Virus record (IMG/VR): IMGVR_UViG_3300045988_175861
From: a virus
Length of the DNA: 50,843 bases
Strand: one strand, 5' to 3'
The notes beneath the pieces are model-generated. The model was not told the DNA's origin. It saw only the letters and a list, made by a program, of their open reading frames with translations, and ran no database searches. Shown in pieces: positions 19,675 through 37,802 of the stretch. The translations under genes were made by a program, and so were the position numbers. Position 1 is the stretch's first letter. Every line of letters starts with the position of its first letter.

Positions 19675-20226
19675 ATGGCAACAAACCCTACAAAAGTAAT
19701 TACTGGAAAAGTACGTTTTTGTTATGCTAACGTGTTCGTACCTACGGCTATTGAAGAAGGACAGCAGGAAAAGTACAATGTATGCGTACTTATTGACAAA
19801 AACGATGAAAAAACATTGACTGCTGTCAATGCAGCAATTGAAGCAGCAAAGCAAGCAGGTAAGTCAATGCTCGCTGACAAGAATGGCAAAATTCCTTCAA
19901 CTCTAAAAGTACCTCTTCATGATGGTGATGAAGAAAGAAGTGACGACCCAGCATTCGTTGGTAAGTATTTCTTGAATGCAAATTCAAATAGAAAACCAAG
20001 CATTGTTGACAAAGACTTAAACGAGATTATGAGCCGAGATGAGTTCTATTCAGGTTGCTACGGCCGAGCTTCACTCAGCTTCTATGCTTATGACAAGAAA
20101 AGTAAAGGCATCGCATGCGGCTTGAACAACTTGCAAAAGCTTGAAGATGGTGAAGCACTAGCAGGTGGTTCTTCTGCTGAGGAAGATTTTGGCGGTGATA
20201 ACGCTTATGATGACGAATTAATGTAG
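19675..20226 (+). CDS. ssDNA-binding protein (DUF2815-like)
   Basis: 183 aa. N terminus VITGKVRFCYANVFVP and an acidic C-terminal tail GGDNAYDDELM. It lies between the nuclease and the polymerase. Confidence 0.7.
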   Translation: MATNPTKVITGKVRFCYANVFVPTAIEEGQQEKYNVCVLIDKNDEKTLTAVNAAIEAAKQAGKSMLADKNGKIPSTLKVPLHDGDEERSDDPAFVGKYFLNANSNRKPSIVDKDLNEIMSRDEFYSGCYGRASLSFYAYDKKSKGIACGLNNLQKLEDGEALAGGSSAEEDFGGDNAYDDELM

Positions 20227-20251: not shown

Positions 20252-20285
20252 AAAGGCCATTGAAATATATGGCCTTTTATTTCTT
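20252..20285 (+). terminator. Rho-independent terminator
   Basis: 9-bp stem AAAGGCCAT/ATGGCCTTT with an 8-nt loop, followed by TTTTATTTCTT. Confidence 0.7.
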
Positions 20286-20391
20286 GGAATATTGGTGTAA
20301 CAGGCTGCACAGCTATCTTGCATTAGAACTTTTATTGCCATGACATGTAATGCAAGTTAGACAGGTACAAGTTCAAATCTTGTATATTCCA
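20286..20391 (+). ncRNA. tRNA-like RNA with canonical acceptor, D and T arms but a 51-nt extended helix in place of the anticodon arm
   Basis: 7-bp acceptor stem GGAATAT/ATATTCC and U8. D arm GTGT-AACAGGCT-GCAC with G18G19. T arm ACAAG-TTCAAAT-CTTGT with G53:C61 and T54 T55 C56 A58. 4-nt variable region, discriminator A, no encoded CCA. Nt 20312-20362 form an irregular long helix with a perfect 8-bp core (TTGCATTA/TAATGCAA) and a 22-nt loop. Confidence 0.55.
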
Positions 20392-20419
20392 CTATTTAAT
20401 CTAATATTAAAAGCAGGAA

Positions 20420-22393
20420 ATGGCAAAAGAATTATTCATTGACGTTGAGACTTATTCATCTAGAGACATTAAAACTTGTGGAGCCTATAAATATATTGAA
20501 TCTCCAGATTTTGAAATACTAATTGTAGGCTATGCTCTAGATGACAATGAACCGGTCATAGTTGATTTATTACAAGGAGAAGAACTACCAGAAGAATTTG
20601 AAGAAGCATTGTTTGATAAAAGCTGTAAAAAAATTGCTCACAATGCAGTATTCGAAAGGCTATCATTTAAACGAATTGGGTATGACATACCAACTAACGA
20701 ATGGCATTGTACAGCAGTGAAAGCAGCTACGTGTGGACTTCCTTTTTCTCTTGATGAAGTGTCAAAAAAGCTTGATTTAACCGATAAAAAGCTAGATACT
20801 GGAAAAGCACTTATTAAATACTTTTCATGCCCATGCAAACCAACTAAGATAAATGGTATGCGTGAACGAAATTATCCTGAGCATGCACCAGATAAATGGG
20901 AAATGTACAAAGAGTATAACAAATATGATGTGCTAGCAGAAAGAGAGATATACAGAAAACTAGAAAAATATGAATTGCCAGATTTTGAAAGGCAATTATA
21001 TTTGCTAGACCAGAAAATAAATGATAGAGGCATATTGGTAGATATGGAATTAGCAGAATCAGCAATTGCTGTAGATACAGAATATACAGAAATGCTGACC
21101 GAGAGAGCTAGAGAAATAACAGAACTTGAAAACCCAAATTCACCAAAGCAATTATGCCAATGGCTAACTCAAATAACAGGTGATGAAATTAAATCACTCG
21201 CAAAAGATGTTATACCTGGGTTGATTGAAAAGTATTCCTCAAACCCAGAGATAATAGAAATACTTGAAATTAGGCAAAAATTATCAAGGTCTTCAGTTAA
21301 GAAATATTATGCAATGCTGAACTGCGCTATGGATGATAATAGAGTAAGAGGCACATTTCAATTCTACGGAGCCAACAGAACTGGTAGATGGGCTGGAAGA
21401 CTGTTACAATTGCAGAACCTATCAAAAAACCATTTAAAACTTATAGAAACATCAAGAGAGCTTATTCGCAAACGCGATTGGGAAACTGTTGAAATTATGT
21501 ACGGCGATGTAGCTGATATACTATCACAATTAGTAAGAACAGCATTAATCGCTCCAGATGGACAAACATTCTCTGTTGCAGACTTCTCCGCGATTGAAGC
21601 TAGGGTTGTGTCATGGCTTTTTGAAGAAGAATGGAGATTGGAAGTATTTAGAGGTGATGGTAAAATATATGAAGCAGCTGGAGCCAGAATGTTCAATGTA
21701 CCAATTTCATCGATAACAAAAGGCTCAGATTTAAGAGCAAAAGCTAAAAATGCAGAATTAGCATTAGGATATGAAGGTGCATTAGGCGCAATGAAAAGAA
21801 TGGGCGGTGATAAGATGGGCATGTCTGATGTTGAAATGATGGATATAGTGAGAAAATGGCGCAAAGCCAATCCAAAAATAGTTGAGGGTTGGAGAATAAT
21901 AGAAAGATGCGCTCATGAAGCAGTAAGATACCAAAGACAAGTCATAGGGCCTAGAGGCTTAGTGTTTGATTGCGATGGTGATGTATTCACAATCAAGTTG
22001 CCATCTGGGCATACACTCTTCTATCGCAATCCTAGATTTAGAATTCGCGACACTGGATTTGGCCGTCAATCAAAAGTTTTATGCTATGATGGCGTAGTAC
22101 AAGAGACAAAACAGTGGGGTGATATTGATACTTATGGTGGTAAGTTAACTGAAAATATTGTACAAGCTATATCAAGAGATTTAATCGGATATGCAATGAT
22201 TAAGCTTGAAGAAAATGGTTATGGAATTACGATGCATGTCCATGATGAGTGCATCTGTGAAATTCCCAAAGATGGATGGGAACCTGATTGGCTGAGAGAA
22301 ATGGAGCGTATAATGGGAACTCCACCTGATTGGGCTTCTGATTTACCTTTGAATGCTGACGGCTACATAACTCCATTCTACAAAAAAGATTAA
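20420..22393 (+). CDS. Family A DNA polymerase with 3'-5' exonuclease domain
   Basis: 657 aa. ExoI FIDVETYS, motif A VADFSAIEARV, motif B RAKAKNAELALGYEGA, motif C ITMHVHDEC. Confidence 0.9.
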   Translation: MAKELFIDVETYSSRDIKTCGAYKYIESPDFEILIVGYALDDNEPVIVDLLQGEELPEEFEEALFDKSCKKIAHNAVFERLSFKRIGYDIPTNEWHCTAVKAATCGLPFSLDEVSKKLDLTDKKLDTGKALIKYFSCPCKPTKINGMRERNYPEHAPDKWEMYKEYNKYDVLAEREIYRKLEKYELPDFERQLYLLDQKINDRGILVDMELAESAIAVDTEYTEMLTERAREITELENPNSPKQLCQWLTQITGDEIKSLAKDVIPGLIEKYSSNPEIIEILEIRQKLSRSSVKKYYAMLNCAMDDNRVRGTFQFYGANRTGRWAGRLLQLQNLSKNHLKLIETSRELIRKRDWETVEIMYGDVADILSQLVRTALIAPDGQTFSVADFSAIEARVVSWLFEEEWRLEVFRGDGKIYEAAGARMFNVPISSITKGSDLRAKAKNAELALGYEGALGAMKRMGGDKMGMSDVEMMDIVRKWRKANPKIVEGWRIIERCAHEAVRYQRQVIGPRGLVFDCDGDVFTIKLPSGHTLFYRNPRFRIRDTGFGRQSKVLCYDGVVQETKQWGDIDTYGGKLTENIVQAISRDLIGYAMIKLEENGYGITMHVHDECICEIPKDGWEPDWLREMERIMGTPPDWASDLPLNADGYITPFYKKD

Positions 22394-27309: not shown

Positions 27310-29061
27310 ATGAAATACTTATTAATCACACTTGGTCATGGCTCATCAGCAATTTATATTGACGATGAAAAGAAAACAGTTATAGGGTACGAACAAGAAC
27401 GTCTATCTGGCATTAAGGCAGATAGCCAATTTCCTAAAGATGCGATAAATGAGATTATAAATAATGTTGGCTATATGGAAATGAAAGGCTGCAACATTTT
27501 TATTTCGCATTGGTTTAATCATCAAGATTCGCCAGCAGATATACTATATAACAAGTATATACAGGAGATTGATGCTATGAACCTAAGAGCATTATCTAGT
27601 AACATAATGCAAGTGAATAAATCATTTTCGCATCATGATGCACATGCGTATAGTGCATTGTCGTTCTTAAAATACAATAGGCCGTCATATAATAAGGAGA
27701 CTTATACGATTGTTGCAGATGGGTTTGGTAACAATGAAGAAGTATTATCGGTATATAAATCTGAAATAAATAATATAATGAGCCCTAAACTCGTATTAAG
27801 AGTTTCAGATTATAGAGCATCACTCGGTCTTATGTACCAATACGCTACTTCATTTTGTGGCATGAAAGAAAATCAAGATGAGTACAAGTTCCTAGGCTAC
27901 GAATCACATATAGATGAAGTGCTGTCGTTAGAAATGATTGATGCATTAGATTTTTATGTAGAAGATAATGTGAAAACACTGGAATCGTATGTACGCGGAG
28001 AAATGCTAAAAAAGTCTGCTGATAGAACAGTATGTAGAGAATGCAATCCAGATATGCTCATAGACACAAGTATGCTATTTGATGTAAGAATGCATTGGTA
28101 TGATATATTTAAAGAAGTGCTAAATATAGCAAACATAGATGTAAACGATACATTCAAAGTAAGATGTGTCATAGCTTACTTTATACAGCAATCAATAGAA
28201 ATATTCTTTGTGAGGCTTATAAATGAATTCAATATGCGAAATGTTTGCTTGGCTGGTGGATGCTTTTATAATGTTAAGCTTAACAACATAATATTAAGCA
28301 GAATAGCAGGTAACCTATGCATAATGCCATTGGCAGGCGACCAAGGAGCAGCAATTGGGATGTATACAGCATTTTCTAGAAAAATATTCAACTTTGGCAA
28401 TTTATGCTTTGGCAAACGACGTTTATACAATATTGAAAAATATGAAAGAAATAATGTAAAGGTTGTAAATTTAAAAACTCCTGGCATAATACAATCGATT
28501 GCAAGAGATATTTGTGATGGCAATATCGTAAATGTTGTGAGAGAAAACATGGAATTTGGTCCACGAGCTTTGTGTTCAACATCTAGTTTATTTCTGCCGA
28601 CTACTGAGAATGTTGCTAGAAACAATATGATGAATAAACGCAATGAGGTTATGCCATGCGCTCCTGTAATTTTATCAGGAAATGCGCATACTATGTTTTA
28701 TAGCAAAGATTTATCAAGAGTTATTGGTAGCTCAAAATATATGATTTGTACATTCGACTATATTAAGAAGTACTCTAAGCAGTATGGTGGCGTAATGCAT
28801 AAAAAGCCTTTAGAGAATGTATATACAGGAAGACCGCAAATCATTGAACCTGATTATATTGATACTGAAAATGATTTTATGTACAATTTGCTAACTGCTG
28901 TTGAAGATATATGTGATGCAAAATGCCTAGTTAATACAAGCTTCAATGCTCATGGCCGCCCAATTGTATTTGACACGATGGATATTATCCATAATTTCAA
29001 TTTTCAATGCGAGCATTCTCCATCTAACAAACAACCTATCTTATATATAATTAAAGGTTAA
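27310..29061 (+). CDS. NodU/CmcH/TobZ-family carbamoyltransferase
   Basis: 583 aa. N-domain motifs LGHGSSAIY, FSHHDAHAYSA and VADGFGNNE. C-domain motifs EFGPRALCSTS, KRNEVMPCAPV and VNTSFNAHGRPIV. All match the Carbam_trans_N and Carbam_trans_C signatures as I know them. Confidence 0.85.
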   Translation: MKYLLITLGHGSSAIYIDDEKKTVIGYEQERLSGIKADSQFPKDAINEIINNVGYMEMKGCNIFISHWFNHQDSPADILYNKYIQEIDAMNLRALSSNIMQVNKSFSHHDAHAYSALSFLKYNRPSYNKETYTIVADGFGNNEEVLSVYKSEINNIMSPKLVLRVSDYRASLGLMYQYATSFCGMKENQDEYKFLGYESHIDEVLSLEMIDALDFYVEDNVKTLESYVRGEMLKKSADRTVCRECNPDMLIDTSMLFDVRMHWYDIFKEVLNIANIDVNDTFKVRCVIAYFIQQSIEIFFVRLINEFNMRNVCLAGGCFYNVKLNNIILSRIAGNLCIMPLAGDQGAAIGMYTAFSRKIFNFGNLCFGKRRLYNIEKYERNNVKVVNLKTPGIIQSIARDICDGNIVNVVRENMEFGPRALCSTSSLFLPTTENVARNNMMNKRNEVMPCAPVILSGNAHTMFYSKDLSRVIGSSKYMICTFDYIKKYSKQYGGVMHKKPLENVYTGRPQIIEPDYIDTENDFMYNLLTAVEDICDAKCLVNTSFNAHGRPIVFDTMDIIHNFNFQCEHSPSNKQPILYIIKG

Positions 29062-29065
29062 TGCT

Positions 29066-29710
29066 ATGAAAAATACGTACTTCGTAGTTTTCTCTGGTGG
29101 TTGTTACAGTGGGAAAACAACTACCATGCAGAAATTCACAAAAGCTCTTGAGAATAAAGGAGTTAAAGTAAAAGTTTTAGATGAGATTGTAAGGAAGCAC
29201 AAGATACAATCTATTGATAAACTGAGAAAAAACCCAGTAGCTTATCTTGATTTTCAAAACAGAATAATAAATGAGAAAATAGAAGCTGAGTTATCATGCC
29301 TCAATGAAAATAGAAAACAAGTTGTAGTTTGTGATAGAGCAATTACTGATTCACTCTTCTATTTGCTATTCTATGTTGACAAAGCAAATTTGAATGAAGA
29401 GCAAATGGCACTCTACGCAAATTTGTATGAAAGTATAGACCAATATGCGAAAAGAGCATTCAGCGAGATATATGATTTGTTAATAGAATTTAAGCCAATC
29501 AATAAAAATGAAACTTATGATTCATACAGGCCAAAAAATATTAGCATAAATAAATATATTGAGTATAAGATGATAAACACTTTGAATGATGCTTACATGA
29601 ACACTTCTACAGACTTACAGGCTTTATATCTCGATTTGAATAAAGGCTCTTACGATGATTTACTTGAAGTAATAACGAATAATATTGCAAAACGATATGA
29701 CAAAGATTAA
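29066..29710 (+). CDS. P-loop nucleotide kinase-like protein (dNMP kinase or DNA 5-hydroxymethyl-pyrimidine kinase candidate)
   Basis: 214 aa. Walker A FSGGCYSGKTT, then VVVCDRAITDSLFY, which resembles the DR...D..Y lid region of dNK/AAA_28-type kinases. Confidence 0.6.
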   Translation: MKNTYFVVFSGGCYSGKTTTMQKFTKALENKGVKVKVLDEIVRKHKIQSIDKLRKNPVAYLDFQNRIINEKIEAELSCLNENRKQVVVCDRAITDSLFYLLFYVDKANLNEEQMALYANLYESIDQYAKRAFSEIYDLLIEFKPINKNETYDSYRPKNISINKYIEYKMINTLNDAYMNTSTDLQALYLDLNKGSYDDLLEVITNNIAKRYDKD

Positions 29711-30518
29711 ACATTTTAACAAGTTGAATGAATATATAACAAGCAATACTTGGAGAGTGTTCTTCAACCAGTTCTTAGACCAAATTCCGTACTCTGAATT
29801 AAGAGATAAGGAATATCTGGAAGTTATTGGAGCTACTTACAGAATACTGCCTGAAAACTATTTAATGAGTAATAACTCATCTTTAATCAATCCTAAAAAG
29901 TTATATGCATTGTTCAAATGGTATAAAAAAGGAGATAGCAAAGACACATCCATAGTACAATATTTTCCTGAATATGAGCATCGTGTTGATTTTTTCCATA
30001 GCGACTTCAATTCTAACTACGGAATATACGCATATAAGAAAAAAGGAATTGTAAGATGCGCGCATGAGCTGATTAAAAACAGAAATTCAAGACAAGCTTG
30101 CTTTATGATAAACAATAATGAAGCAATGTCTGAAGATTCTATTGATAAACTATGCACTAATGCTATAATGTTCTTCATAAGAGACAACATGCTCAACATG
30201 TGCATACAGATGCGCTCATCTAATATACTCACAATGCTTCCATACGACATATTTATGTTCTGTGTGTTCTATTATCAGGTTTTAGAAATGGTATCGTCAA
30301 AATACCATGACTTAGATACAGGTGTTATAACTATGCAAGTTGGCTCTCTTCACATGTACAAAAAAGATATGGAAGAAATAAAAAGTACAAAGCCTTTATT
30401 AAAAATTGGAATTGATGGCTCATATTTATATGGTGGTATGATACCTTATAGATACGCGCATACGAAGATTACTCCAGCGATTGAAAATATTCTCAAACAA
30501 CTAGCTGAAAATGGATGA
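29685..30518 (+). CDS. Thymidylate-synthase-fold pyrimidine C5 transferase, paralogue 1 (dCMP hydroxymethylase/methylase candidate)
   Basis: 277 aa. SNYGIYAY (YGxQW region), NSRQACFMINN (SRR...WNP region), catalytic-Cys segment KLCTNAIMFF, QMRSSNILTMLPYDI (aligns to QRSCDVFLGLPFNI) and GSLHMYKKD. Asp replaces the Asn177-equivalent residue. Confidence 0.75.
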   Translation: MQNDMTKIKHFNKLNEYITSNTWRVFFNQFLDQIPYSELRDKEYLEVIGATYRILPENYLMSNNSSLINPKKLYALFKWYKKGDSKDTSIVQYFPEYEHRVDFFHSDFNSNYGIYAYKKKGIVRCAHELIKNRNSRQACFMINNNEAMSEDSIDKLCTNAIMFFIRDNMLNMCIQMRSSNILTMLPYDIFMFCVFYYQVLEMVSSKYHDLDTGVITMQVGSLHMYKKDMEEIKSTKPLLKIGIDGSYLYGGMIPYRYAHTKITPAIENILKQLAENG

Positions 30519-30771
30519 TAATACCGATTTGCTGCTAAAATATGCCAAACAGAATAATGATTTTCTGAGGGCTATATACTCTCTTACAAAGCAAAATAAT
30601 GAATTGTTGAAATATATAAAGCAAGAGATAGATAAAGAATTTAGCTTAGAAAATCTCATAAAAGTGGAAAGCGTTATTTTTGTAGCAAATATAGTTGCTA
30701 ATATATTTTCAAACATTTTATATCATGATTTATTAGAAGACAAAAGTAAGTATAACAAAAAGCAAAAATGA
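30511..30771 (+). CDS. Hypothetical protein
   Basis: 86-aa ORF that overlaps both neighbours by a few nt. Confidence 0.55.
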   Translation: MDDNTDLLLKYAKQNNDFLRAIYSLTKQNNELLKYIKQEIDKEFSLENLIKVESVIFVANIVANIFSNILYHDLLEDKSKYNKKQK

Positions 30772-31265
30772 TTATGAAATTCTTAAAAACAAGAAATGTG
30801 AAAAGCCCAGTAAGAGGCACTGATAAGTCAGCAGGAATTGATTTTTTCATTCCAGAAGATTTTGAAATAATGAGATTATTTCCTGGTGACGATGTGCTCA
30901 TTCCGTCTGGAATTAAAGCCAATTTGCCAGAAGGTTTCATGCTGATGGCCGCAGACAAATCAGGTGTTGTTACATCAGAAAATGCTGTACTTAAAAGTGG
31001 AAGAGAGCCTAAAAAGGGCGCATTCAATTCAAATTTGATAATTGGCGCAAAGATTGTTGATGAAGACTATCAAGGAGAAATACACATACATTTAATAAAT
31101 GTTGGTAAGCATGAAGTTATGCTAAAACCTGGTATGAAGATTGCACAATTTATCTTAGTGCCAGTTGCATATGCTGCTTTAGAAGAAGTCGATAGCGAAA
31201 CTGAATTGTTCGATGCTAAGACAGCAAGAGCAGATGGTGGTTTTGGCTCTACAGATAAACGATAA
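30768..31265 (+). CDS. dUTPase-family (trimeric) nucleotide pyrophosphatase
   Basis: 165 aa with all five motifs: SAGIDFF, DKSGV, AKIVDEDYQGEI, MKIAQF and RADGGFGSTD. It has about 14 extra residues between motifs 2 and 3 relative to E. coli Dut as I recall that sequence. Confidence 0.85.
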   Translation: MIMKFLKTRNVKSPVRGTDKSAGIDFFIPEDFEIMRLFPGDDVLIPSGIKANLPEGFMLMAADKSGVVTSENAVLKSGREPKKGAFNSNLIIGAKIVDEDYQGEIHIHLINVGKHEVMLKPGMKIAQFILVPVAYAALEEVDSETELFDAKTARADGGFGSTDKR

Positions 31266-31278
31266 CACATAAGGTTTT

Positions 31279-31345
31279 ATTCTAGAGAGGCTTTTTATTA
31301 GGTCTAATATATTTCATTCTCAATTTGATTTAGCCTCTCTAGAAT
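31279..31345. promoter_or_regulatory. 14-bp perfect inverted repeat with 39-nt spacer
   Basis: ATTCTAGAGAGGCT (31279-31292) pairs with AGCCTCTCTAGAAT (31332-31345). No flanking T-tract. It lies between the dUTPase-family gene and the next ORF. Confidence 0.6.
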
Positions 31346-31375
31346 AGCCTAAGATAACTTAACTTATTTAAACAA

Positions 31376-31705
31376 ATGCATATGAAAACTATAATCGTAT
31401 GTTTAATGCTACTACTTGCTAATAGCTCATTTGCTCAAATATATATTGAAGATATTGATGAGAAAATAGAGCAATTGGTACAACAGAATAGAATACTGCT
31501 ACAAAAAGCTGATAGCCTTAATAAGCAATTAAAAATCATAATTGCAAGCAGACAAGAAGGTGATGCAATGATAAAAGCAAGACAGAATGAGATAAATTCT
31601 TTACTAGGAATAGTAAAAGTCAATATCGATATGATGTATGCTTTGCAAGATAGAAAAAGAATACTTCAACAGATAGAAAGCAATGGATGCAATAGTAATA
31701 AATAA
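31376..31705 (+). CDS. Secreted coiled-coil protein
   Basis: 109 aa. Signal-peptide-like N terminus MHMKTIIVCLMLLLANSSFAQ, then heptad-like sequence. Confidence 0.6.
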   Translation: MHMKTIIVCLMLLLANSSFAQIYIEDIDEKIEQLVQQNRILLQKADSLNKQLKIIIASRQEGDAMIKARQNEINSLLGIVKVNIDMMYALQDRKRILQQIESNGCNSNK

Positions 31706-31910
31706 TGTAATGCATGAATTATTGCTTAATAAAGATTTTATGCCTGGAAATGTAGCAATAAAAATGTGTGATATGTGTTCATTAAAAAGTTATTGTTGGA
31801 ACTTAAGCATTCCTGATATATGCGATACTTTGATAATGCAAGATGAGCATAAAAATGATTACAGGATGTTTAGAGAAATTGGCAAATTGCAAGGTTATTT
31901 CTTAGAATAA
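31683..31910 (+). CDS. Hypothetical Cys-rich protein
   Basis: 75-aa ORF with CDMCSLKSYCWNLSIPDIC. Confidence 0.5.
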   Translation: MDAIVINNVMHELLLNKDFMPGNVAIKMCDMCSLKSYCWNLSIPDICDTLIMQDEHKNDYRMFREIGKLQGYFLE

Positions 31911-31927
31911 TTAAACATAAAAAATGT

Positions 31928-32356
31928 ATGGCAAGAAAAACAGTGAATATTGACCCTCTTATAAATTCAGATTTATTCCTTAAGTTTGCAGGTCATTTTG
32001 CAGATAAGTTTAAAAAGCAAAATGGGTTTGGCAAATGGCTTGAAGAGTATAAGAGAATGGACAAACAAGGATTGTTCGAACCAGAGAAACTAAGGCAACA
32101 ATATATTCAAGTTATTAACAATAATTATAGACTTGGATTTGTACATAAACAAGCGATTGTGTATATTTGTGTACAAGCACTTGATGCCGTAAAATTTGGC
32201 ATAGAAACTAAGAATTATAGCATTTATGTAATATCAGGTGAAATAGCTATTGATGACAATGGATTGGAACTTAAAAATCTTAAGCATGATGACGCAATAA
32301 CTATTTGCAAATCTATGAATGAAGAAGCAGAAGAAGAATTATTTTATGTAAAGTAG
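31928..32356 (+). CDS. Hypothetical protein
   Basis: 142-aa ORF that starts with ATGGCAA. Confidence 0.65.
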   Translation: MARKTVNIDPLINSDLFLKFAGHFADKFKKQNGFGKWLEEYKRMDKQGLFEPEKLRQQYIQVINNNYRLGFVHKQAIVYICVQALDAVKFGIETKNYSIYVISGEIAIDDNGLELKNLKHDDAITICKSMNEEAEEELFYVK

Positions 32357-32361
32357 CAACT

Positions 32362-33060
32362 ATGATAGACAATACTATTAAAAACTTAATATTCTTAGAT
32401 GCAACTGATGCGTTTGAATATTTGTATGAATACATAATGAAATATGGAAAAAATACAAATATAGGGACTAAAGCTATATATAACGCTGGGTTTTATATAG
32501 CACAACCGCAAAGAAGACTTATAGAAACTAGATGGAGGAAATTCAGTATAACCTATGCAGAAAGAGAATGGCAATGGTATTTATCGCAAAATAGAAGTGT
32601 CAAAGACATAAAGAAATATGCCAAGATTTGGGATAAAATGCATGGAGGAGACAATATAGTCAATTCAAACTATGGTTGGCAATGGAACCGCAATGCACAG
32701 CTTGGAAAATGTATAGAACAATTAAAGGCAAACAAAAATACACGCCAAGCTTGGCTTACAATATTTGATGGTAAAGAAAAAGATGATTATGAATTTGACA
32801 CACCATGTACATTGTCTATAGGCTTTGATATACTACAAAATGAAAATGGCGATGATTTTCTCAATATGTGTGTAAACATGCGGTCTAATGATTTGATTTA
32901 TGGTTTTTGCAATGACCAATATTGTTTTTCTATGTTACAAGAATACGTTGCAAAAAAACTAGGTATCCGTGTAGGAACATATTATCATTTTGTTCATGAT
33001 TTACATATCTACGAAAAGCATTATAACTTAAAAGAAAAATATTATGAAAAAACTAGGTAA
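32362..33060 (+). CDS. Thymidylate-synthase-fold pyrimidine C5 transferase, paralogue 2
   Basis: 232 aa. NYGWQWN, NTRQAWLTIFD, catalytic-Cys segment DTPCTLSIGF, NMRSNDLIYGFCNDQY (aligns to QRSCDVFLGLPFNIAS) and DLHIYEKHY. Asp again sits at the Asn177-equivalent position. Confidence 0.8.
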   Translation: MIDNTIKNLIFLDATDAFEYLYEYIMKYGKNTNIGTKAIYNAGFYIAQPQRRLIETRWRKFSITYAEREWQWYLSQNRSVKDIKKYAKIWDKMHGGDNIVNSNYGWQWNRNAQLGKCIEQLKANKNTRQAWLTIFDGKEKDDYEFDTPCTLSIGFDILQNENGDDFLNMCVNMRSNDLIYGFCNDQYCFSMLQEYVAKKLGIRVGTYYHFVHDLHIYEKHYNLKEKYYEKTR

Positions 33061-34281: not shown

Positions 34282-34728
34282 TTATTTCTTTACTGCTTTC
34301 CAAAGATGGTAAATACTGCCTTTCTCTGTTTGAATATACTGTTTTCCATAATCATTGTAAAGAATTTTGCACACCTGTGGCTCTAATGGTGGTTTACAAG
34401 TGTTTGCATATCTTACTGTGCATTCACTGCTTATTCCATCCCAATTTATCTGCAAATACCAATTATTGAACAAATCAATATATAGATTGTATTGAAATTC
34501 ATCTTCTTCATATGGGATGAATAGAGCTTCTATGAGACCATTTCTTTCATCCAAATAGCACCAATCGTCATCTATATGAAAGCCATTCTGGAAGCGCCTA
34601 TTTATATCATAGACAAACTTCATATTTGCTTCATCAATCATAGGTTCATCATCTTTCATGTAGAAAAATGCATCATTTGGAATTATGACCCGCTCTGCAT
34701 GGTCATAATTCATAGAATAATTTGCCAT
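34282..34728 (-). CDS. Hypothetical acidic protein (leftward early module)
   Basis: 148-aa ORF that starts with ATGGCAA, with a TATATTTA box about 90 nt upstream on the minus strand. Preferred over the overlapping + strand ORFs. Confidence 0.65.
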   Translation of the reverse strand: MANYSMNYDHAERVIIPNDAFFYMKDDEPMIDEANMKFVYDINRRFQNGFHIDDDWCYLDERNGLIEALFIPYEEDEFQYNLYIDLFNNWYLQINWDGISSECTVRYANTCKPPLEPQVCKILYNDYGKQYIQTEKGSIYHLWKAVKK

Positions 34729-34817
34729 AATTTTTTACTGTCTATCTGTGTATTATTCATCTAGTAATATGCAATATTTTTTACTGCAGCCTAGACTACA
34801 GGCTACATTTTAACATG

Positions 34818-34825
34818 TAAATATA
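34818..34825 (-). promoter_or_regulatory. -7-like promoter box (TATATTTA on the minus strand)
   Basis: The reverse complement of TAAATATA lies upstream of the 34728 start. A TTTTCTGTTAAT element sits at 34852. Confidence 0.4.
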
Positions 34826-35073
34826 GAAAAAATATTTGAATAACCAAAGAATTTTCTGTTAATTATTTGTTAAATATTATAAAGCCACATTCAATATAAA
34901 AATCAGGCATTGCTAATATCTTATCTAGATATTAACCAGCATACTAGATTTAGCCTAGATTTAATTTAAATACAAGAAACGATAAAACCCATTGGAAATT
35001 ATAAAAGTTTCTAGAAATAGCCCAAAATGACCTAAATTGAGTAGAAATATTATGTTTAATATAAATGGAGGCA

Positions 35074-35113
35074 CAAAAATATAGGCAGGCTATCTTCACA
35101 GACTGCCTGCCTA
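35074..35113 (-). terminator. Hairpin terminator (minus strand) with AGTCTGTGAAGATA loop
   Basis: 9-bp stem TAGGCAGGC/GCCTGCCTA with a 14-nt loop. The minus-strand transcript continues into TATATTTTT. It lies directly downstream of the 35167..36249 gene. Confidence 0.75.
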
Positions 35114-35166
35114 CTGGTTTTCACCTAAACTTAATTATGAATTATTTAAACAGAATGGCTGGTATA

Positions 35167-36249
35167 TTATTCAGCTGAATTTTCAGCATTTTCTGCAGCT
35201 TTGAGTTCACTGTCAAGCTTTTCTGCAAGTTCTTTCTTAGCTTCTTCAAGCTCTTCAGTCAATTTTGCCTTCTTTGCATTCAGCTTCTCAATCTGAGCAT
35301 CAATTTGTGAAATTCTCTTTTCGGCCAATTCGATACTCTTTTCAGGAGTTAATTCCTCTTTGTTTTTTCTGTTATGCAGTCTTTCCATATATTTGGCATT
35401 CAGCTTTGCACCTTCTTCATCAAGCTCTTCTGCCAATCTCAAATCTTTATTGTCTGACACTTTGTGAGAATATTTAACAGGGAGACCTAATGCTTTCTCA
35501 TCTTCTGTTTGGTCAATTGCAATTCTGAACAGAATTCTCTTGCCTCTCTTATCTGCTACTAGTGATACAACTCTACCAGTTTCAGTCTCTGCATTCTCAA
35601 TCTTTTCTCCAATTGCTCCAGTCTTCTCATAAGCAATTGTTTTGCCGACATGGACTGAATTCTCCTCAATTGCCTTGTTAATATCTTCTTCAGCCCAAGG
35701 TTCTTTTGGCTGTGAATTTTCAGATGACCTCTTAGTGCCTCTTGCTTTCTTCGGCAATTCAACAACTTCATCTTCAATCTTAATGAGCTGAGAATCTACA
35801 GCTTTCACAATTCTCCGGCCATCATCAAGCTTAATGGCATACATTACTTTGTTTGACCTCTTTTCCTCAATGATTGAAACAACTATTCCTGGTTCCCAGA
35901 TTGCAGTATTGAAAGGCACAACTTGGCATCTATGGCCAATTGTAGTTTCTTTCAATTTTGCTGCAAGCTCAGAGCGCTCTTGGTCAGTCATCTTCTTTTT
36001 TGTTTCCTTTGAGCCACCTTTGCCTTCATAAGAGGGGTTTATGCCACCATTTTCCTCAGCTGCTTTGATTGCTGCCTCTTCTTCCGGAGTAAGTGGAGCT
36101 TCTTCAGCTTCAGCTACCTCTTTGGCTTTTTGCTGTCTAGCTTCAAGGATTGCTGTGATTTGGTCTTTCACTTCTTGAGTAGTTTCTTCACTGTTGAACA
36201 TTTCATTCAATTTCTTTGAACTCATCTGATTTAAATTCTTTGTTGCCAT
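35167..36249 (-). CDS. Hypothetical highly charged protein with an internal duplication and C-terminal coiled coil
   Basis: 360 aa, monocistronic with its own promoter module and terminator. GIVVSIIEEKRSNKVMYAIKLDD and GRVVSLVADKRGKRILFRIAIDQ are two copies of a small beta-rich module. Confidence 0.75.
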   Translation of the reverse strand: MATKNLNQMSSKKLNEMFNSEETTQEVKDQITAILEARQQKAKEVAEAEEAPLTPEEEAAIKAAEENGGINPSYEGKGGSKETKKKMTDQERSELAAKLKETTIGHRCQVVPFNTAIWEPGIVVSIIEEKRSNKVMYAIKLDDGRRIVKAVDSQLIKIEDEVVELPKKARGTKRSSENSQPKEPWAEEDINKAIEENSVHVGKTIAYEKTGAIGEKIENAETETGRVVSLVADKRGKRILFRIAIDQTEDEKALGLPVKYSHKVSDNKDLRLAEELDEEGAKLNAKYMERLHNRKNKEELTPEKSIELAEKRISQIDAQIEKLNAKKAKLTEELEEAKKELAEKLDSELKAAENAENSAE

Positions 36250-36256
36250 AATTTTT

Positions 36257-36356
36257 AGTTTTTTAATTGGTTATTATTAGCTTTAATTTGTTATTGCAAA
36301 TACGATTGTTATTTTTTAATCTTGAAAGTATTTTAGAACTTTTTTCTGTTAAATAA
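36257..36356 (-). promoter_or_regulatory. Leftward promoter module A
   Basis: On the + strand: AGTTTTTTAATTG (36257), the complement of the -7 box CGTATTTG (36297-36304), TAATCTTGAAAGT (36317) and TTTTCTGTTAAATAA (36342). The order and 20/45-nt spacings match module B. Confidence 0.65.
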
Positions 36357-36399
36357 TGTTTATGATACCTTCAACTGTTTTTCTTTAATTATCACATTG

Positions 36400-36407
36400 C
36401 AAATATA
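36400..36407 (-). promoter_or_regulatory. -7 promoter box TATATTTG (minus strand)
   Basis: Reverse complement of CAAATATA, within the 36250-36496 intergenic gap. Confidence 0.45.
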
Positions 36408-36496
36408 CATGTTTCCTGATTGTATTTTGTTAATTGCAAGTTAAAATTTTCTGGTTGTCTGTTAAATTTTGTTTTAGCATTTGCTGTTATTTCAAA

Positions 36497-36748
36497 TTAC
36501 AACTCAGCCACTTTTTCTAAATTATAACATGCGTTTTCTAAGACTCTATGCATCTTGGACCTCATTTCAGCTTCACTGATAACATTTCTTTTGAATATTA
36601 TTATGAACTGGCAAGGACTAACTTCTATTATAACTGATGAGCCTGAAAGCTCAGTCTGTAAGTTATCTACAATTATGCTATAATCACTGTTTCTAAGTGG
36701 TGCAATTTCAAATCTATAGACTACACAATCTCCATTCTCTTGTTTCAT
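36497..36748 (-). CDS. Hypothetical protein
   Basis: 83-aa ORF, the last gene of the four- or five-gene leftward operon. Confidence 0.6.
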   Translation of the reverse strand: MKQENGDCVVYRFEIAPLRNSDYSIIVDNLQTELSGSSVIIEVSPCQFIIIFKRNVISEAEMRSKMHRVLENACYNLEKVAEL

Positions 36749-36771
36749 AATTCTCAGTGTTTTTTAAATGA

Positions 36772-37077
36772 CTACAATAAATTAACTTCTCCTTTTGTTA
36801 TATCAAAAATCTGTATACCACTCAAAATATGAAACTTACCATACTTTGCAAGTCCTTTATAATTAACTATTTTCTGTGCATAATATCTATTCTGAGCTTT
36901 GCTGTAATTTATTTGATAAATTGAAGAATACCCACAAACATATAATTTTTCTCTTTCAATAATTTCACAAGAAATTCTGTTAAGTTCTATATTTCCAGCT
37001 TTGCATTCTATTGCTGTGTCTTCATACATAACATGAAAAGGGACATCTTCTGGTCTTTTGTAAATAGCTGTTTTCAT
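36772..37077 (-). CDS. Hypothetical protein
   Basis: 101-aa ORF in the leftward operon. Confidence 0.6.
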   Translation of the reverse strand: MKTAIYKRPEDVPFHVMYEDTAIECKAGNIELNRISCEIIEREKLYVCGYSSIYQINYSKAQNRYYAQKIVNYKGLAKYGKFHILSGIQIFDITKGEVNLL

Positions 37078-37089
37078 AATTATTAGTTT

Positions 37090-37185
37090 TTAAATTCCAA
37101 ACAAATGATAACTTATGATACTTATAAGGAGCATAGCCAATCCTATGGCTATGCATATATCTCCTTCTTTTTTATTGCTCTCCAT
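37090..37185 (-). CDS. Possible small membrane peptide (31 aa)
   Basis: Hand translation of the minus strand gives MESNKKEGDICIAIGLAMLLISIISYHLFGI. It fills the gap between two leftward genes. Confidence 0.4.
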   Translation of the reverse strand: MESNKKEGDICIAIGLAMLLISIISYHLFGI

Positions 37186-37199
37186 GACTACCTGAATTA

Positions 37200-37472
37200 T
37201 TACAGCTTATATTCTATTACTTTGTGGGCAGTTCTTGACTCAAATGCATTATGAGCAAACCCAAGTGTAGATGCCAACCTTACTGCTTTTTTCAATTGTA
37301 TCATTATTTCAAATGCTGCATCTTGAGCATTGTGTTCAGCGATTGAAAAATCTCTGTTGTTGCTACATTCATTCTGTGTCTTTTCAGCATTCTCAATATC
37401 AGCTAAGCATTTATTGATTTGCTTCATTGTTGCCTTAATCTCTTTTCTGTAATCTTCTGTCAAAGTCTTCAT
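37200..37472 (-). CDS. Hypothetical protein
   Basis: 90-aa helical ORF, the first gene downstream of promoter module B. Confidence 0.65.
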   Translation of the reverse strand: MKTLTEDYRKEIKATMKQINKCLADIENAEKTQNECSNNRDFSIAEHNAQDAAFEIMIQLKKAVRLASTLGFAHNAFESRTAHKVIEYKL

Positions 37473-37479
37473 AACTGTA

Positions 37480-37577
37480 AGTTTTTTAATTGTTAGTATT
37501 CTTTTGTTTTGGTATTACAAATATACAGGATAATTTCTAATCTTGAAAGTTTTTATAGTTAATTTTCTGTTAAATAA
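37480..37577 (-). promoter_or_regulatory. Leftward promoter module B
   Basis: On the + strand: AGTTTTTTAATTG (37480), the complement of TATATTTG (37518-37525), TAATCTTGAAAGT (37538) and TTTTCTGTTAAATAA (37563). Confidence 0.7.
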
Positions 37578-37579
37578 CC

Positions 37580-37594
37580 ATGCCATTGTGGCAT
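37580..37594. repeat. Palindrome ATGCCA-TTG-TGGCAT
   Basis: Perfect 6-bp arms. It is the first member of the TGGCA/TGCCA motif family that fills 37580-38320. Confidence 0.7.
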
Positions 37595-37783
37595 TAAGCA
37601 TTAATTCTTATTTCCGCATAATCATGCCAGAATGTCATATTGAAACTATCTCAAATCAGTTATCATTTAACGGCTTTATAGTGCTGTTATGAATGCAATA
37701 TTGGTGTGATATCAAATCAAAATTGTAATGGCATCATGCACACAGGTGATAATGACAAATTGGCATGTTGCATACTTGTAGGG

Positions 37784-37802
37784 TGACAGGATGACAGGAT
37801 GA
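37784..37802. repeat. 8-bp tandem repeat TGACAGGA x2.4
   Basis: TGACAGGATGACAGGATGA read directly from the sequence. Confidence 0.8.

What the first reader, a model, noticed from the sequence alone, without database searches (positions are those of the whole stretch)
20286..20391. tRNA-like RNA whose anticodon arm is replaced by a 51-nt helix
Seen in sequence: the element sits between the SSB terminator and the DNA polymerase gene. Its canonical tRNA features are:
- a perfect 7-bp acceptor stem (GGAATAT/ATATTCC) and U8;
- a 4-bp D stem whose loop carries G18G19;
- a 4-nt variable region;
- a textbook T arm (ACAAG TTCAAAT CTTGT).
Where the 17-nt anticodon arm should be there are 51 nt instead. 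They fold into a bulged helix with a perfect 8-bp core (TTGCATTA/TAATGCAA) capped by a 22-nt loop, GAACTTTTATTGCCATGACATG. No canonical 7-nt anticodon loop can be drawn and no CCA is encoded.

The loop contains TTGCCAT. This is complementary to ATGGCAA, the start context of the adjacent polymerase gene (20420) and of at least seven other genes in this genome. That link is speculative.

Inference: the element could be a tRNA mimic, for example a decoy for tRNA-targeting defence nucleases or anticodon nucleases, or a substrate for the CCA-adding enzyme or RNase P. It could also be a regulatory RNA, or a tRNA gene disrupted by a small insertion.
Basis: seen in the sequence. Interest (0 to 1): 0.65.

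Follow-up and report, generated by a model that had tools for sequence, protein, structure and literature searches.

The report
Non-decoding tRNA-shaped RNA before phage polymerase
This is a real tRNA-shaped RNA gene that cannot read codons, one member of a widespread family sitting just before the DNA polymerase gene of Bacteroidota phages; it is probably cut out by the host's tRNA-processing enzymes to separate two messages and release a stable RNA with a fast-changing arm.

Summary
Window 20286-20391 (+) has a complete tRNA body, but 50 nt stand where the 17-nt anticodon arm should be: a 9-bp helix capped by a 22-nt loop. Rfam's tRNA model scores it 39.6 bits (cut-off 29), but only in a sensitive search of the local 351 nt. 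ARAGORN and both whole-window Rfam scans miss it.

It is not an oddity of this genome. A strict scan finds the same kind of element within 1 kb upstream of the family A DNA polymerase (PolA) in 97 of 146 related Bacteroidota-phage loci. It finds none in 74 Firmicutes-type control loci. Some relatives carry a canonical tRNA-Gln(UUG) at this spot.

- The acceptor, D and T stems covary and the tertiary-contact bases are kept.
- The 3' trailer reads C74-W75-A76 in almost every class. Genuine tRNA genes of Bacteroides phage crAss001 share the C74-W75 part.
- The central arm ranges from about 13 to 75 nt. It is swapped between near-identical phages, yet one arm loop is identical on two diverged scaffolds.

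No intron model fits.

Best reading (about 0.45): a tRNA-derived element matured by RNase P and the tRNA 3'-end pathway. This punctuates the SSB-PolA transcript and releases a stable RNA that displays a functional arm. The TTGCCAT/ATGGCAA link has modest statistical support. Nothing could be tested at the RNA level.

The parts
20252..20285 (+). Terminator-like hairpin AAAGGCCATTGAAATATATGGCCTTT followed by TATTTCTT. It ends 8 nt before the element and would form the 5' leader that RNase P removes (base -1 is T).
   Evidence: 9-bp stem with a T run; 4 terminator-like sites found against 0.7 expected in shuffles. Similar hairpins precede the element in relatives, seen in sequence.
20286..20292 (+). 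Acceptor stem, 5' strand (GGAATAT)
   Evidence: All 7 pairs show double compensatory changes across 31 family members.
20293..20311 (+). U8, G9, the D arm (GTGT / AACAGGCT / GCAC, with G18G19) and A26
   Evidence: T8 is invariant; G10, A14, A15 and C25 are nearly invariant in alignment A2.
20312..20361 (+). Enlarged central arm standing in place of the anticodon arm. It has an outer stem CUA/UAG with a U-U mismatch, a 9-bp helix (20317-20325 with 20348-20356) and a 22-nt loop (20326-20347).
   Evidence: Absent from the B. fragilis phage orthologues, which have CTAAT here.
20326..20347 (+). 22-nt loop GAACTTTTATTGCCATGACATG. The blocks CTTTT and TGCCATGACA are conserved among the four variants of this class. 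TTGCCAT is complementary to ATGGCAA.
   Evidence: in-class alignment; complementarity and duplex energies.
20362..20366 (+). Variable region CAGGT (U48 is the Levitt partner of A15)
   Evidence: Rfam alignment
20367..20383 (+). T arm ACAAG / TTCAAAT / CTTGT
   Evidence: All 5 pairs covary in the family, and T54, T55, A58 and the G53-C61 pair are conserved.
20384..20391 (+). Acceptor stem, 3' strand (ATATTCC) and discriminator A
20392..20394 (+). 3' trailer CTA. This is the family signature C74-W75-A76, in place of an encoded CCA.
   Evidence: C74 in 34 of 36 classes, W75 in 36 of 36, A76 in 32 of 36; the same C74-W75 pattern in most genuine tRNA genes of phage crAss001.
20392..20419 (+). A/U-rich 28-nt stretch that would become the leader of the polymerase mRNA after 3' processing of the element
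   Evidence: inference from the family (spacing mostly 21-32 nt)
20420..22393 (+). Family A DNA polymerase gene, starting ATGGCAAAAG
19675..20226 (+). Enc34-type ssDNA-binding protein gene (PF10991, formerly DUF2815), also starting ATGGCAA

Best explanation
The element is a tRNA-derived gene that has lost decoding ability but is still handled as a tRNA.

Proposed mechanism:
1. It is transcribed on the + strand with the replication genes and folds into a normal L-shaped tRNA body.
2. Host RNase P cuts at G20286.
3. The tRNA 3'-end pathway cuts or trims at A73/C74 (20391/20392), and CCA is completed.

This has two consequences:
- It punctuates the transcript. The SSB message ends at its hairpin, and the polymerase message gains a new 5' end with a short, unstructured A/U-rich leader. 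That suits Bacteroidota, whose ribosomes make little use of Shine-Dalgarno sites.
- It releases a stable tRNA-shaped RNA of about 106-109 nt. Its enlarged arm displays a 22-nt loop with the conserved core UGCCAUGACA. The loop binds something specific, possibly AUGGCA(A) start regions. That partner is not identified.

Shown here: the structure, family membership, synteny, selection on the scaffold and on the 3' trailer, and the non-decoding arm.

Inferred: the cleavages, the effect on polymerase expression and the loop's partner.
For: 1. The full tRNA body is present, with a tRNA covariance-model score above Rfam's cut-off.

2. The position is conserved. A strict scan finds such an element within 1 kb upstream of PolA in 97 of 146 Bacteroidota-phage-type loci, 0 of 74 Firmicutes-type genome loci and 1 of 25 distant viral loci. 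About 30 further loci carry variant forms seen by eye. Members range from gut and rumen phages to the marine Croceibacter phage P2559Y.

3. A canonical tRNA-Gln(UUG) occupies the same place in L016 and L201. This points to descent from phage tRNA genes.

4. The scaffold is under selection. In 31 diverse members 97.4% of cells pair and all 16 pairs show double changes. Sliding the partners by 1-3 columns drops pairing to 31-46%.

5. The 3' trailer is C74 (34/36), W75 (36/36, never C) and A76 (32/36) in an AT-rich background. I read C74 in about 21 of 23 genuine tRNA genes of Bacteroides phage crAss001. So the 3' processing site is under selection as in real tRNA genes.

6. In the L008-L014 class the polymerase AUG begins at position 76 of the element (A73-C-U-A-U-G). 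The start codon abuts the acceptor stem, so translation should need excision. The result would be a nearly leaderless mRNA, as in mitochondrial tRNA punctuation.

7. Relatives without the element solve the junction differently. In Clostridioides phage phiCDKH02 the SSB and polymerase genes overlap. Elizabethkingia phage TCUEAP1 has a terminator followed by a consensus Bacteroidetes promoter. The window has no such promoter consensus here.

8. The arm is functional, not junk. It is replaced between phages whose flanks are 94-96% identical (L136 against L105). The 25-nt loop TTCGGAAACCGTCTGTGGAAACCAA is identical on two scaffolds whose stems have all covaried.

9. Plant mitochondrial t-elements show that degenerate tRNA-like structures can define mRNA ends (PMC1920247, title and abstract).
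Against: - There are no RNA data.
- A terminator-like hairpin lies between the SSB gene and the element. If it terminates efficiently, the element and the polymerase gene need a promoter that I could not find.
- In Croceibacter phage P2559Y the element lies 558 nt upstream of the polymerase gene, so adjacency to that gene is not universal.
- RNase P needs only the acceptor and T arms. Punctuation alone therefore does not explain why the D arm and tertiary core are kept, or why arm loops are constrained in sequence.
- The elements in the covariation alignment were picked by a scan that required pairing, so the percentage paired is partly circular. The control loci and the Rfam scores are independent of that.
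Confidence: 0.45

Rival explanations
1. A tRNA-scaffolded antisense regulator. The excised RNA, or the element while still in cis, uses its loop (CUUUU...UUGCCAU) to pair with the start codon region AUGGCA(A)AAG of the polymerase mRNA and of other phage genes that start AUGGCA, and so tunes their translation. The tRNA body only provides processing and stability. This resembles the RNase P-processed C4 antisense RNA of phages P1 and P7.
For: - TTGCCAT is complementary to ATGGCAA, the commonest start heptamer of this genome (8 of 56 ORFs, including the SSB and polymerase genes).
- The chance that a 22-nt loop holds that heptamer is about 6e-4 by my estimate from base composition.
- Four of 20 arm classes have at least 7 nt complementary to the AUG region of the next ORF: L117 11 nt, L022 10, L025 9, L017 and L041 7. 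The expectation from shuffled arms is 0.31 (p about 5e-4). With start regions permuted among classes, p is about 0.03.
- In L025 both CCAU motifs sit in predicted hairpin loops.
- The loop blocks conserved within the window's class, CTTTT and TGCCAT, are those that can pair with AUGGCA...AAAG. The variable bases lie between them.
Against: - The window's match is only 7 nt, and 6 nt in the closest relatives, whose loop changed (CUGCCAU) while the target did not.
- The polymerase start region ranks 9th of 56 by predicted duplex energy (-11.6 kcal/mol; p 0.03-0.06).
- The conserved GACA next to CCAU is not explained by pairing.
- Most short-arm classes (66, 74, 78 and 83 nt) have no such complementarity.
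- The B. fragilis phages keep ATGGCAA starts but have no anti-start loop.
- Matches of 8-11 nt also occur at non-start positions in these AT-rich loci.
- The arm classes are not phylogenetically independent.
Confidence: 0.2
2. A decoy or sponge. The tRNA-shaped RNA titrates a host factor that recognises the tRNA body, such as a tRNA-targeting defence nuclease or modifier, or the arm mimics some host RNA. Its variability would then reflect an arms race.
For: - The arm is hypervariable and is swapped between near-identical phages.
- The full L-shape is conserved, beyond what RNase P minimally needs.
- Tandem copies occur in some phages (L019, L044, L053).
Against: - The anticodon loop, which anticodon nucleases recognise, is exactly what is missing.
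- One phage RNA could hardly compete with the cellular tRNA pool for enzymes that act on bulk tRNA.
- A fixed position next to the polymerase gene across deep divergence is not expected of an accessory anti-defence gene.
- Pfam found no linked defence or anti-defence protein among the 40 ORFs scanned.
Confidence: 0.12
3. A DNA-level site. The loop region TTATTGCCATGACATG is a binding site for the protein that binds the ATGGCA/TGCCAT iterons of the 1.9-kb non-coding region, that is, an operator or replication site. On this reading its place inside a tRNA-like gene is incidental.
For: - The core TGCCATGACA fits the palindromic pattern TG-N-CATG-N-CA.
- Its complement TCATGGCAAT occurs twice in the iteron array (38019 and 38050), and ATTGCCATCAT occurs at 37924.
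- TGCCAT recurs in the arms of several long classes (L017, L025 and, in the opposite orientation, L131).
Against: - A 10-nt match to a 2-kb region is expected by chance in about 3-5% of cases (my estimate).
- The site lies in a loop flanked by a perfect 9-bp inverted repeat, which points to an RNA hairpin.
- This reading does not explain the conserved tRNA scaffold or the trailer.
Confidence: 0.08
4. A decaying tRNA pseudogene or neutral remnant with no present function.
For: Canonical tRNAs occupy the same locus in a few relatives, and the anticodon arm is destroyed in many different ways.
Against: - The scaffold stems are 97% paired with compensatory changes at every pair.
- The tertiary nucleotides and the C74-W75-A76 trailer are kept in 34-36 of 36 classes.
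- Some arm loops are invariant.
- The strict scan finds the element in 97 of 146 related loci.
Confidence: 0.05
5. A genuine decoding tRNA whose anticodon loop carries an intron that is spliced out, or a miniature tmRNA.
For: - ARAGORN's intron mode proposes tRNA-Gly(gcc) with a 31-nt intron.
- CUUGCAU resembles a tRNA-Ala(UGC) anticodon loop.
- The reading frame GCC AUG ACA UGU AAU GCA AGU UAG exists in the arm (seen in sequence).
Against: - The intron calls differ between near-identical relatives: Gly gcc i(37,31), Ala tgc i(38,26), Val gac i(32,25).
- 35 nt is far too short for a group I intron.
- There is no bulge-helix-bulge motif, because the putative 5' splice site lies inside a perfect 9-bp helix.
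- Pfam found no splicing endonuclease or RNA ligase among the 40 ORFs scanned.
- There is no G3:U70 pair (A3-U70), the short frame is not conserved in L004, and ARAGORN and Rfam find no tmRNA.
Confidence: 0.03

Closest known systems
Plant mitochondrial t-elements and the mitochondrial tRNA punctuation model
   Same: A tRNA or degenerate tRNA-like structure lies between cistrons of one transcript. RNase P and RNase Z excise it and so define mRNA ends. In animal mitochondria this leaves leaderless mRNAs, which parallels the L008-L014 class, where the polymerase AUG starts at position 76 of the element.
   Different: Those are organellar systems. Here the setting is a DNA phage of Bacteroidota, the tRNA core is fully kept, and the arm appears to have a function of its own. 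Cleavage has not been shown here.
mascRNA / MALAT1 and MEN-beta tRNA-like 3' modules
   Same: The tRNA-like structure has a poorly conserved anticodon arm. RNase P cleavage makes the 3' end of the upstream RNA, which is protected by its own structure (here a hairpin), and releases a small tRNA-like RNA that receives CCA.
   Different: Those are eukaryotic nuclear long non-coding RNAs with no downstream cistron, and mascRNA is small (about 61 nt), not enlarged.
C4 antisense RNA of phages P1 and P7 (Rfam RF01695)
   Same: A phage RNA encoded directly upstream of its target on the same transcript. It is matured by RNase P, and its loops pair with the translation start region of the downstream gene (my own knowledge of that system).
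   Different: There is no sequence or covariance-model similarity: C4 is not among the Rfam matches up to E = 10. C4 is not a full cloverleaf, and the complementarity here is short and not universal in the family.
tRNA-like domain of tmRNA
   Same: Acceptor stem and T arm are kept, and the anticodon arm is replaced by a long helix leading to a functional insert.
   Different: There is no G3:U70, no conserved tag reading frame and no pseudoknots. The D arm is complete. ARAGORN and Rfam find no tmRNA.
Bacterial YrlA (Y RNA-like) RNAs
   Same: A non-coding RNA with a tRNA-like module (acceptor, D and T arms) and no anticodon; the fourth arm is a long protein-binding stem (PMC4201824, title and abstract).
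   Different: In YrlA the RNA ends lie in the long stem and the acceptor-like stem is closed by a loop (a permuted topology, from my own knowledge). Here the ends are at the acceptor stem. No Ro/Rsr gene is present and there is no Rfam YrlA match.
Ordinary phage-encoded tRNAs, including the tRNA-Gln(UUG) at the same locus in relatives
   Same: Same genomic position, the same scaffold features and the same C74-W75 trailer; the D arm resembles that of the tRNA-Gln in L201.
   Different: There is no 7-nt anticodon loop, so no decoding is possible.

Membership tests
tRNA (Rfam RF00005, canonical decoding tRNA) | Cloverleaf scaffold: 7-bp acceptor stem, D arm with G18G19, T arm with the T-psi-C loop, and a covariance-model score above the gathering threshold | tested here: met
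   39.6 bits against a gathering score of 29, full model 1-71, but found only with lax filters. It is missed.
tRNA (Rfam RF00005, canonical decoding tRNA) | 5-bp anticodon stem closing a 7-nt loop with U33 and a readable anticodon | tested here: not met
   50 nt fold into a 9-bp helix with a 22-nt loop. ARAGORN in default mode finds no tRNA.
tRNA (Rfam RF00005, canonical decoding tRNA) | 3' end that can be matured to CCA | tested here: inconclusive
   CCA is not encoded, but C74-W75-A76 is conserved and genuine crAss001 tRNA genes share C74-W75. Actual CCA addition was not testable.
Intron-containing tRNA (group I, or archaeal/eukaryal bulge-helix-bulge type) | Group I catalytic core (more than about 200 nt) inserted in the anticodon loop | tested here: not met
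   The insertion is about 35 nt, and no intron family appears among the Rfam matches up to E = 10.
Intron-containing tRNA (group I, or archaeal/eukaryal bulge-helix-bulge type) | Bulge-helix-bulge motif at the exon-intron junctions, with a consistent intron position and anticodon among relatives | tested here: not met
   The junction lies inside a perfect helix. ARAGORN's intron mode gives Gly, Ala and Val at positions 37, 38 and 32 for relatives whose polymerases are 96-97% identical.
tmRNA | G3:U70 alanine identity pair, a tag reading frame with a resume codon, pseudoknots, and detection by ARAGORN or Rfam | tested here: not met
   The pair is A3-U70. There is no tmRNA call, and the short frame in the arm is not conserved in L004.
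tRNA-like processing signal (t-element / tRNA punctuation) | tRNA-like fold with acceptor and T arms, located between two same-strand cistrons | tested here: met
   It is syntenic in 97 of 146 related loci.
tRNA-like processing signal (t-element / tRNA punctuation) | Cleavage by RNase P at +1 and by RNase Z or exonucleases at the 3' end, creating the mRNA ends | not testable with these tools
   No RNA data. Indirect support only: the conserved C74 trailer and the AUG at position 76 in the L008 class.
C4-type cis-encoded antisense RNA | Loops complementary to the translation start region of the downstream gene | tested here: inconclusive
   7 nt in the window. The family-level excess has p about 5e-4 against shuffles and about 0.03 against permuted start regions. 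The window's duplex energy has p 0.03-0.06.
C4-type cis-encoded antisense RNA | Homology to Rfam C4 (RF01695) | tested here: not met
   Not among the matches up to E = 10.

The most novel reading that the evidence does not exclude
These phages use the tRNA body as a natural display scaffold. The host tRNA machinery excises and stabilises the RNA, and the former anticodon arm is an exchangeable cassette that specifies a binding partner. In the window's class, a loop would silence or time a set of phage genes that start AUGGCA(A), polymerase and SSB included. In other classes, sequence-invariant loops such as GGAAACC-GUCUGU-GGAAACC would bind a protein or a host defence component. That would be a new class of phage regulatory or anti-defence RNA, built like the tRNA scaffolds used in biotechnology.
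Probability: 0.2. Interest if true: 0.8.

Novelty: new variant of a known kind. Interest (0 to 1): 0.6.

Why it matters
- **Annotation gap.** Standard annotation misses these elements: ARAGORN and Rfam at default settings found nothing in this window. Yet they are present in most members of a large group of gut, rumen and marine Bacteroidota phages.
- **Gene expression.** If they are processing signals, they would be a phage example of tRNA punctuation. That would show how polycistronic messages are turned into translatable units in bacteria that make little use of Shine-Dalgarno sites. One subclass would produce a nearly leaderless polymerase mRNA.
- **A possible new RNA class.** If the exchangeable arm is a specificity module, this is a new kind of phage regulatory or counter-defence RNA, and a natural precedent for tRNA-scaffolded RNA display.
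- **Testability.** Cultured relatives exist: the B. fragilis phages BF503P1 and BF486P2, and Croceibacter phage P2559Y.

Tried and rejected
1. Standard detectors. ARAGORN in default mode found 0 tRNAs. Rfam in gathering mode and the sensitive whole-window scan found nothing. Only the local sensitive scan finds the tRNA model.

2. DNA similarity to GenBank phages. Megablast found no match. Distant blastn of the intergenic region gave only chance hits.

3. Intron models. ARAGORN's intron mode gives mutually inconsistent calls, so this was rejected.

4. tmRNA or a micro-ORF. There is no G3:U70, the frame is not conserved and no detector calls one, so this was rejected.

5. Repeated mobile hairpin. 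The arm helix pattern occurs only in this class, and arm B occurs once per contig, so this was rejected.

6. Antisense target for arm B. No conserved complementary site was found within the loci held, which run up to about 14 kb each.

7. Host promoter between the terminator and the polymerase gene. No TTTG-N(18-22)-TAnnTTTG match is relevant: 5 genome-wide against 3 expected, all inside ORFs or on the wrong strand. The sigma-70 scan was no better than shuffles.

8. Public sequencing runs for transcript ends.

9. Literature. Four completed searches found no description of this family. The Bacteroides uniformis phage paper with the same replication module does not mention tRNA.

10. Prophage or host search in genomes. 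Close relatives appear only on phage-sized MAG contigs. Firmicutes prophages with the same module lack the element.

11. tRNA repair or splicing enzymes. Pfam found none among the 40 ORFs scanned.
Full report
**1. The observation**

The sequence at 20286-20391 (+) is as described. It has:
- a 7-bp acceptor stem (GGAATAT with ATATTCC) and U8;
- a 4-bp D stem whose loop AACAGGCT carries G18G19;
- a T arm ACAAG-TTCAAAT-CTTGT;
- a discriminator A followed by CTA, not CCA.

The usual tertiary partners can all be read off the sequence: U8-A14, A15-U48, G18/G19 with T55/C56, T54-A58 and G53-C61.

Fifty nucleotides (20312-20361) stand in place of the 17-nt anticodon arm. They form a short outer stem (CUA/UAG) with a U-U mismatch and a perfect 9-bp helix (CTTGCATTA with TAATGCAAG). 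The helix is capped by the 22-nt loop GAACTTTTATTGCCATGACATG.

Detection depends on the search settings:
- Rfam's tRNA model matches over its full length at 39.6 bits (gathering score 29, E = 4e-7), with a 35-nt insertion in the anticodon loop. This appears only when 351 nt are searched with lax filters.
- ARAGORN, Rfam in gathering mode and the sensitive scan of the whole window all report nothing.

Routine annotation would therefore miss the element.

**2. Context**

The window is a phage genome of about 50 kb with about 35% G+C.
- Upstream lies an Enc34-type ssDNA-binding protein gene (PF10991), preceded by a DUF2800 nuclease gene.
- Downstream lie a family A DNA polymerase (PolA), a VapE-type primase-helicase and an SNF2 helicase.
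- A terminator-like hairpin with a T run (20252-20277) ends 8 nt before the element.
- The closest GenBank phages are Bacteroides fragilis phages BF503P1, BF486P2 and relatives (polymerase 75% identical), then Croceibacter phage P2559Y at 54%.

**3. It is a family**

I collected loci anchored on the polymerase from three sources: viral contigs, metagenomes and genomes. I then scanned the 1 kb upstream of the polymerase gene. The scan required an acceptor stem, a D arm with GG, and a T arm abutting the acceptor 3' strand.

| Group of loci | Loci with an element |
|---|---|
| Bacteroidota-phage type (polymerase at least 51% identical to the window's) | 97 of 146 |
| Firmicutes-type loci from genomes (at most 51%) | 0 of 74 |
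| Distant viral loci (at most 49%) | 1 of 25 |

About 30 of the "negative" Bacteroidota-type loci carry variant forms seen by eye:
- the 66-nt form of the B. fragilis phages;
- a form with only two arms besides the acceptor stem (L036-L040 and relatives);
- a 63-nt form (L024, L068).

Rfam scores for other members are 47-52 bits.

Total length runs from 66 to 124 nt, and all of the variation is in the central arm.

A canonical tRNA-Gln(UUG) sits at the same place in L016 and L201. The arms of the L020 and L033 classes still show that tRNA's anticodon stem (ACAGA...CCTGT). The family therefore most likely descends from phage tRNA genes at this locus.

The window's own scaffold is homologous to that of the B. 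fragilis phages: CACAGCTA-[arm]-TAG in both. Where they have CTAAT, the window has a 42-nt hairpin.

**4. What is conserved and what is not**

*Scaffold.* I aligned 31 diverse scaffolds with the arm removed (A2).
- 97.4% of cells pair.
- All 16 pairs show changes on both sides.
- Pairing falls to 31-46% when partners are slid by 1-3 columns.
- T8 is invariant, and G10, A14, A15, C25, G53 and C56 are nearly so.

The members were chosen by a scan that demands pairing, so the percentage paired is partly circular. The zero hits in the control loci and the independent Rfam scores are not.

*3' trailer.* In 36 scaffold classes position 74 is C in 34. Position 75 is A or T in all 36 and never C. Position 76 is A in 32. 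The background is only about 15% C.

I checked genuine tRNA genes of Bacteroides phage crAss001 as a control. By my reading, about 21 of 23 also carry C74, usually followed by A or T, and only 2 encode CCA. The elements therefore keep the 3'-processing signature of real tRNA genes of this host group.

*Central arm.*
- It is never a 5-bp stem with a normal 7-nt loop.
- Most arms are hairpins closed by a stem at the base.
- It changes far faster than its surroundings. L136 and L105 have flanks 96% and 94% identical and scaffolds 90-92% identical, yet their arms cannot be aligned.
- In the four variants of the window's class, 2 of 54 scaffold columns vary, against about 11 of 53 arm columns.
- The arm is nevertheless not free to drift. 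The loop TTCGGAAACCGTCTGTGGAAACCAA is identical on two scaffolds (AGTATAG... and GGAGCAG...) whose acceptor, T and arm-base stems have all changed with compensation.
- In the window's class the blocks CTTTT and TGCCATGACA are invariant while the bases around them vary.

**5. Readings excluded**

*Intron.* 35 nt is too short for a group I intron. There is no bulge-helix-bulge motif, because the would-be splice site lies inside a perfect helix. ARAGORN's intron mode gives Gly(gcc), Ala(tgc) and Val(gac), with different intron positions, for relatives whose polymerases are 96-97% identical. Pfam finds no splicing endonuclease, RNA ligase or CCA enzyme among the 40 ORFs scanned.

*tmRNA.* The third acceptor pair is A3-U70. 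No detector calls a tmRNA. The short frame in the arm is not conserved.

*Pseudogene.* This is contradicted by the selection on the scaffold, the trailer and the loops.

**6. How it most likely works**

The conserved features are the acceptor stem, the T arm, the elbow and the C74 trailer. From established tRNA biochemistry, these are what RNase P, the 3'-end pathway and the CCA-adding enzyme read. The element is indifferent to what only the ribosome and most synthetases read.

I therefore infer that host enzymes excise the element from the replication-gene transcript. Three context observations fit a punctuation role:

a. In the L008-L014 class the polymerase AUG begins at position 76 of the element (A73-C-U-A-U-G) in at least seven sequence variants. 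The start codon abuts the acceptor stem, so initiation should need excision. The product would be nearly leaderless, as in animal mitochondria.

b. In most other classes the next ORF starts 21-32 nt after the element. That ORF is either the polymerase or a conserved 44-46-codon ORF that precedes it. The leader is A/U-rich.

c. Relatives without the element use other solutions. The SSB and polymerase genes overlap in a Clostridioides phage. An Elizabethkingia phage has a terminator followed by a consensus Bacteroidetes promoter, TTTG-19 nt-TAGCTTTG. The window has no such promoter before the polymerase gene.

Plant mitochondrial t-elements (PMC1920247) and mascRNA are precedents for degenerate tRNA shapes used as processing signals.

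Punctuation alone does not explain the complete tertiary core or the constrained loops. I therefore add that the excised RNA is probably a stable molecule whose arm binds a specific partner.

**7. The TTGCCAT/ATGGCAA idea**

In favour:
- ATGGCAA is the commonest start heptamer in this genome (8 of 56 ORFs).
- Across 20 arm classes, 4 carry at least 7 nt complementary to the AUG region of the next ORF. The best are 11 nt in L117, 10 in L022 and 9 in L025.
- Only 0.31 such classes are expected from shuffled arms (p about 5e-4). With start regions permuted among classes, 1.5 are expected (p about 0.03).

Against:
- The classes are related to one another.
- Most short-arm classes show nothing.
- The window's match is 7 nt, and 6 nt in its closest relatives.
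- Its predicted duplex with the polymerase start (-11.6 kcal/mol) ranks only 9th of 56 start regions.
- Background matches of 8-11 nt are common in these AT-rich loci.

I rate this a live but unproven rival, at about 0.2. The P1/P7 C4 RNA is the nearest known analogue in mechanism, not in sequence.

A DNA-level alternative also exists. The loop resembles the ATGGCA/TGCCAT iterons of the 1.9-kb non-coding region. That match is about what chance allows.

**8. Verdict**

- The feature is real and under selection. It is a new variant of a known kind (a tRNA-like element).
- Its family, its synteny with the polymerase gene and its cassette-like arm appear to be undescribed. Four completed literature searches found nothing.
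- All functional statements are inferences from sequence. No RNA-level data were available.

Noticed in passing
window 37473-39449: A 1.9-kb stretch without ORFs. It holds at least 12 copies of an iteron built on ATGGCA/TGCCAT, including a tandem 31-nt unit at 38005-38066 and the palindrome ATGCCATTGTGGCAT at about 37580. It also holds many TAAACAAT repeats (38640-39280) and a GC-rich near-palindrome at about 38800-38850. It lies between the minus-strand genes (34282-37472) and the packaging genes, so it is probably an origin or a regulatory region.
   Followed up: partly
window 27310-33060: A cluster suggesting DNA base hypermodification: a carbamoyltransferase (27310-29061), an AAA_28 kinase-like protein (29066-29710), two thymidylate-synthase-like proteins (29685-30518 and 32362-33060) and a dUTPase/dCTP-deaminase-like protein (30768-31265).
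   Followed up: no
L009 1976-2059; L010 2723-2810; L011 2710-2792; L012 2720-2805; L013 2772-2859; L014 2779-2861: A second, non-canonical cloverleaf of 83-88 nt lies upstream of the tRNA-like element in the L008-L014 class; a further partial copy is visible upstream in L012. It has a 7-bp closing stem (AGCUCGG with CCGAGCU), an arm GGACG-UAAUAGAAAG-CGUC, a variable middle hairpin, and a 5-6-bp arm with a 7-nt loop that abuts the 3' strand and shows compensatory changes. It has no GG or T-psi-C motifs and no Rfam match at E < 0.5.
   Followed up: partly
L006, L017, L022, L025, L036-L040 and L117, between the element and the polymerase gene: A conserved small ORF of about 37-46 codons with the motif F-(S/T/K)-G-T-x-x-E-C-x-x-Y lies between the tRNA-like element and the polymerase gene in several lineages. 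It is absent from the window.
   Followed up: no
L019 2300-2382 and L006 2767-2850 (also L175-L196): The arm loop UUCGGAAACCGUCUGUGGAAACCAA contains two direct GGAAACC repeats 6 nt apart. It is 100% conserved on two diverged scaffolds and occurs once per phage contig. No complementary target was found in the loci held, which suggests a protein-binding site.
   Followed up: partly
L200 (Bacteroides phage crAss001) 1682-5807, and 36 element classes: Genuine tRNA genes of crAss001 almost all encode C74 followed by A or T rather than CCA (2 of 23 encode CCA). The tRNA-like elements share this and add a strongly conserved A76. It may be a general 3'-processing signature of Bacteroidota tRNA genes. 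Host genomes were not checked.
   Followed up: partly
L003 (Croceibacter phage P2559Y) 2357-2443 and 2444-3000: This cultured marine phage has an unannotated tRNA-like element of 86 nt plus a discriminator (52 bits). It has G3:U70 and A73, the alanine identity set, and a 16-nt insertion after a UUGCAAA loop. A 558-nt stretch without any annotated gene follows, before the polymerase gene.
   Followed up: partly
L001 (BF503P1) about 2933-2940: In the B. fragilis phage orthologue the T-arm sequence TAAGTTTG matches the Bacteroides -7 promoter consensus TAnnTTTG exactly. No TTTG -33 box lies at the right distance, and the window's T arm lacks the match, so this is probably coincidence.
   Followed up: no
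window ORF starts (for example 6514, 10715, 19675, 20420, 31928, 33244; minus strand 34728, 36249): Ten of 56 ORFs start ATGGCA, 8 of them ATGGCAA, making this the commonest start context. The loop of the element is predicted to pair better with several of these, and with the ATGG starts at 14359 and 43218, than with the polymerase start.
   Followed up: partly
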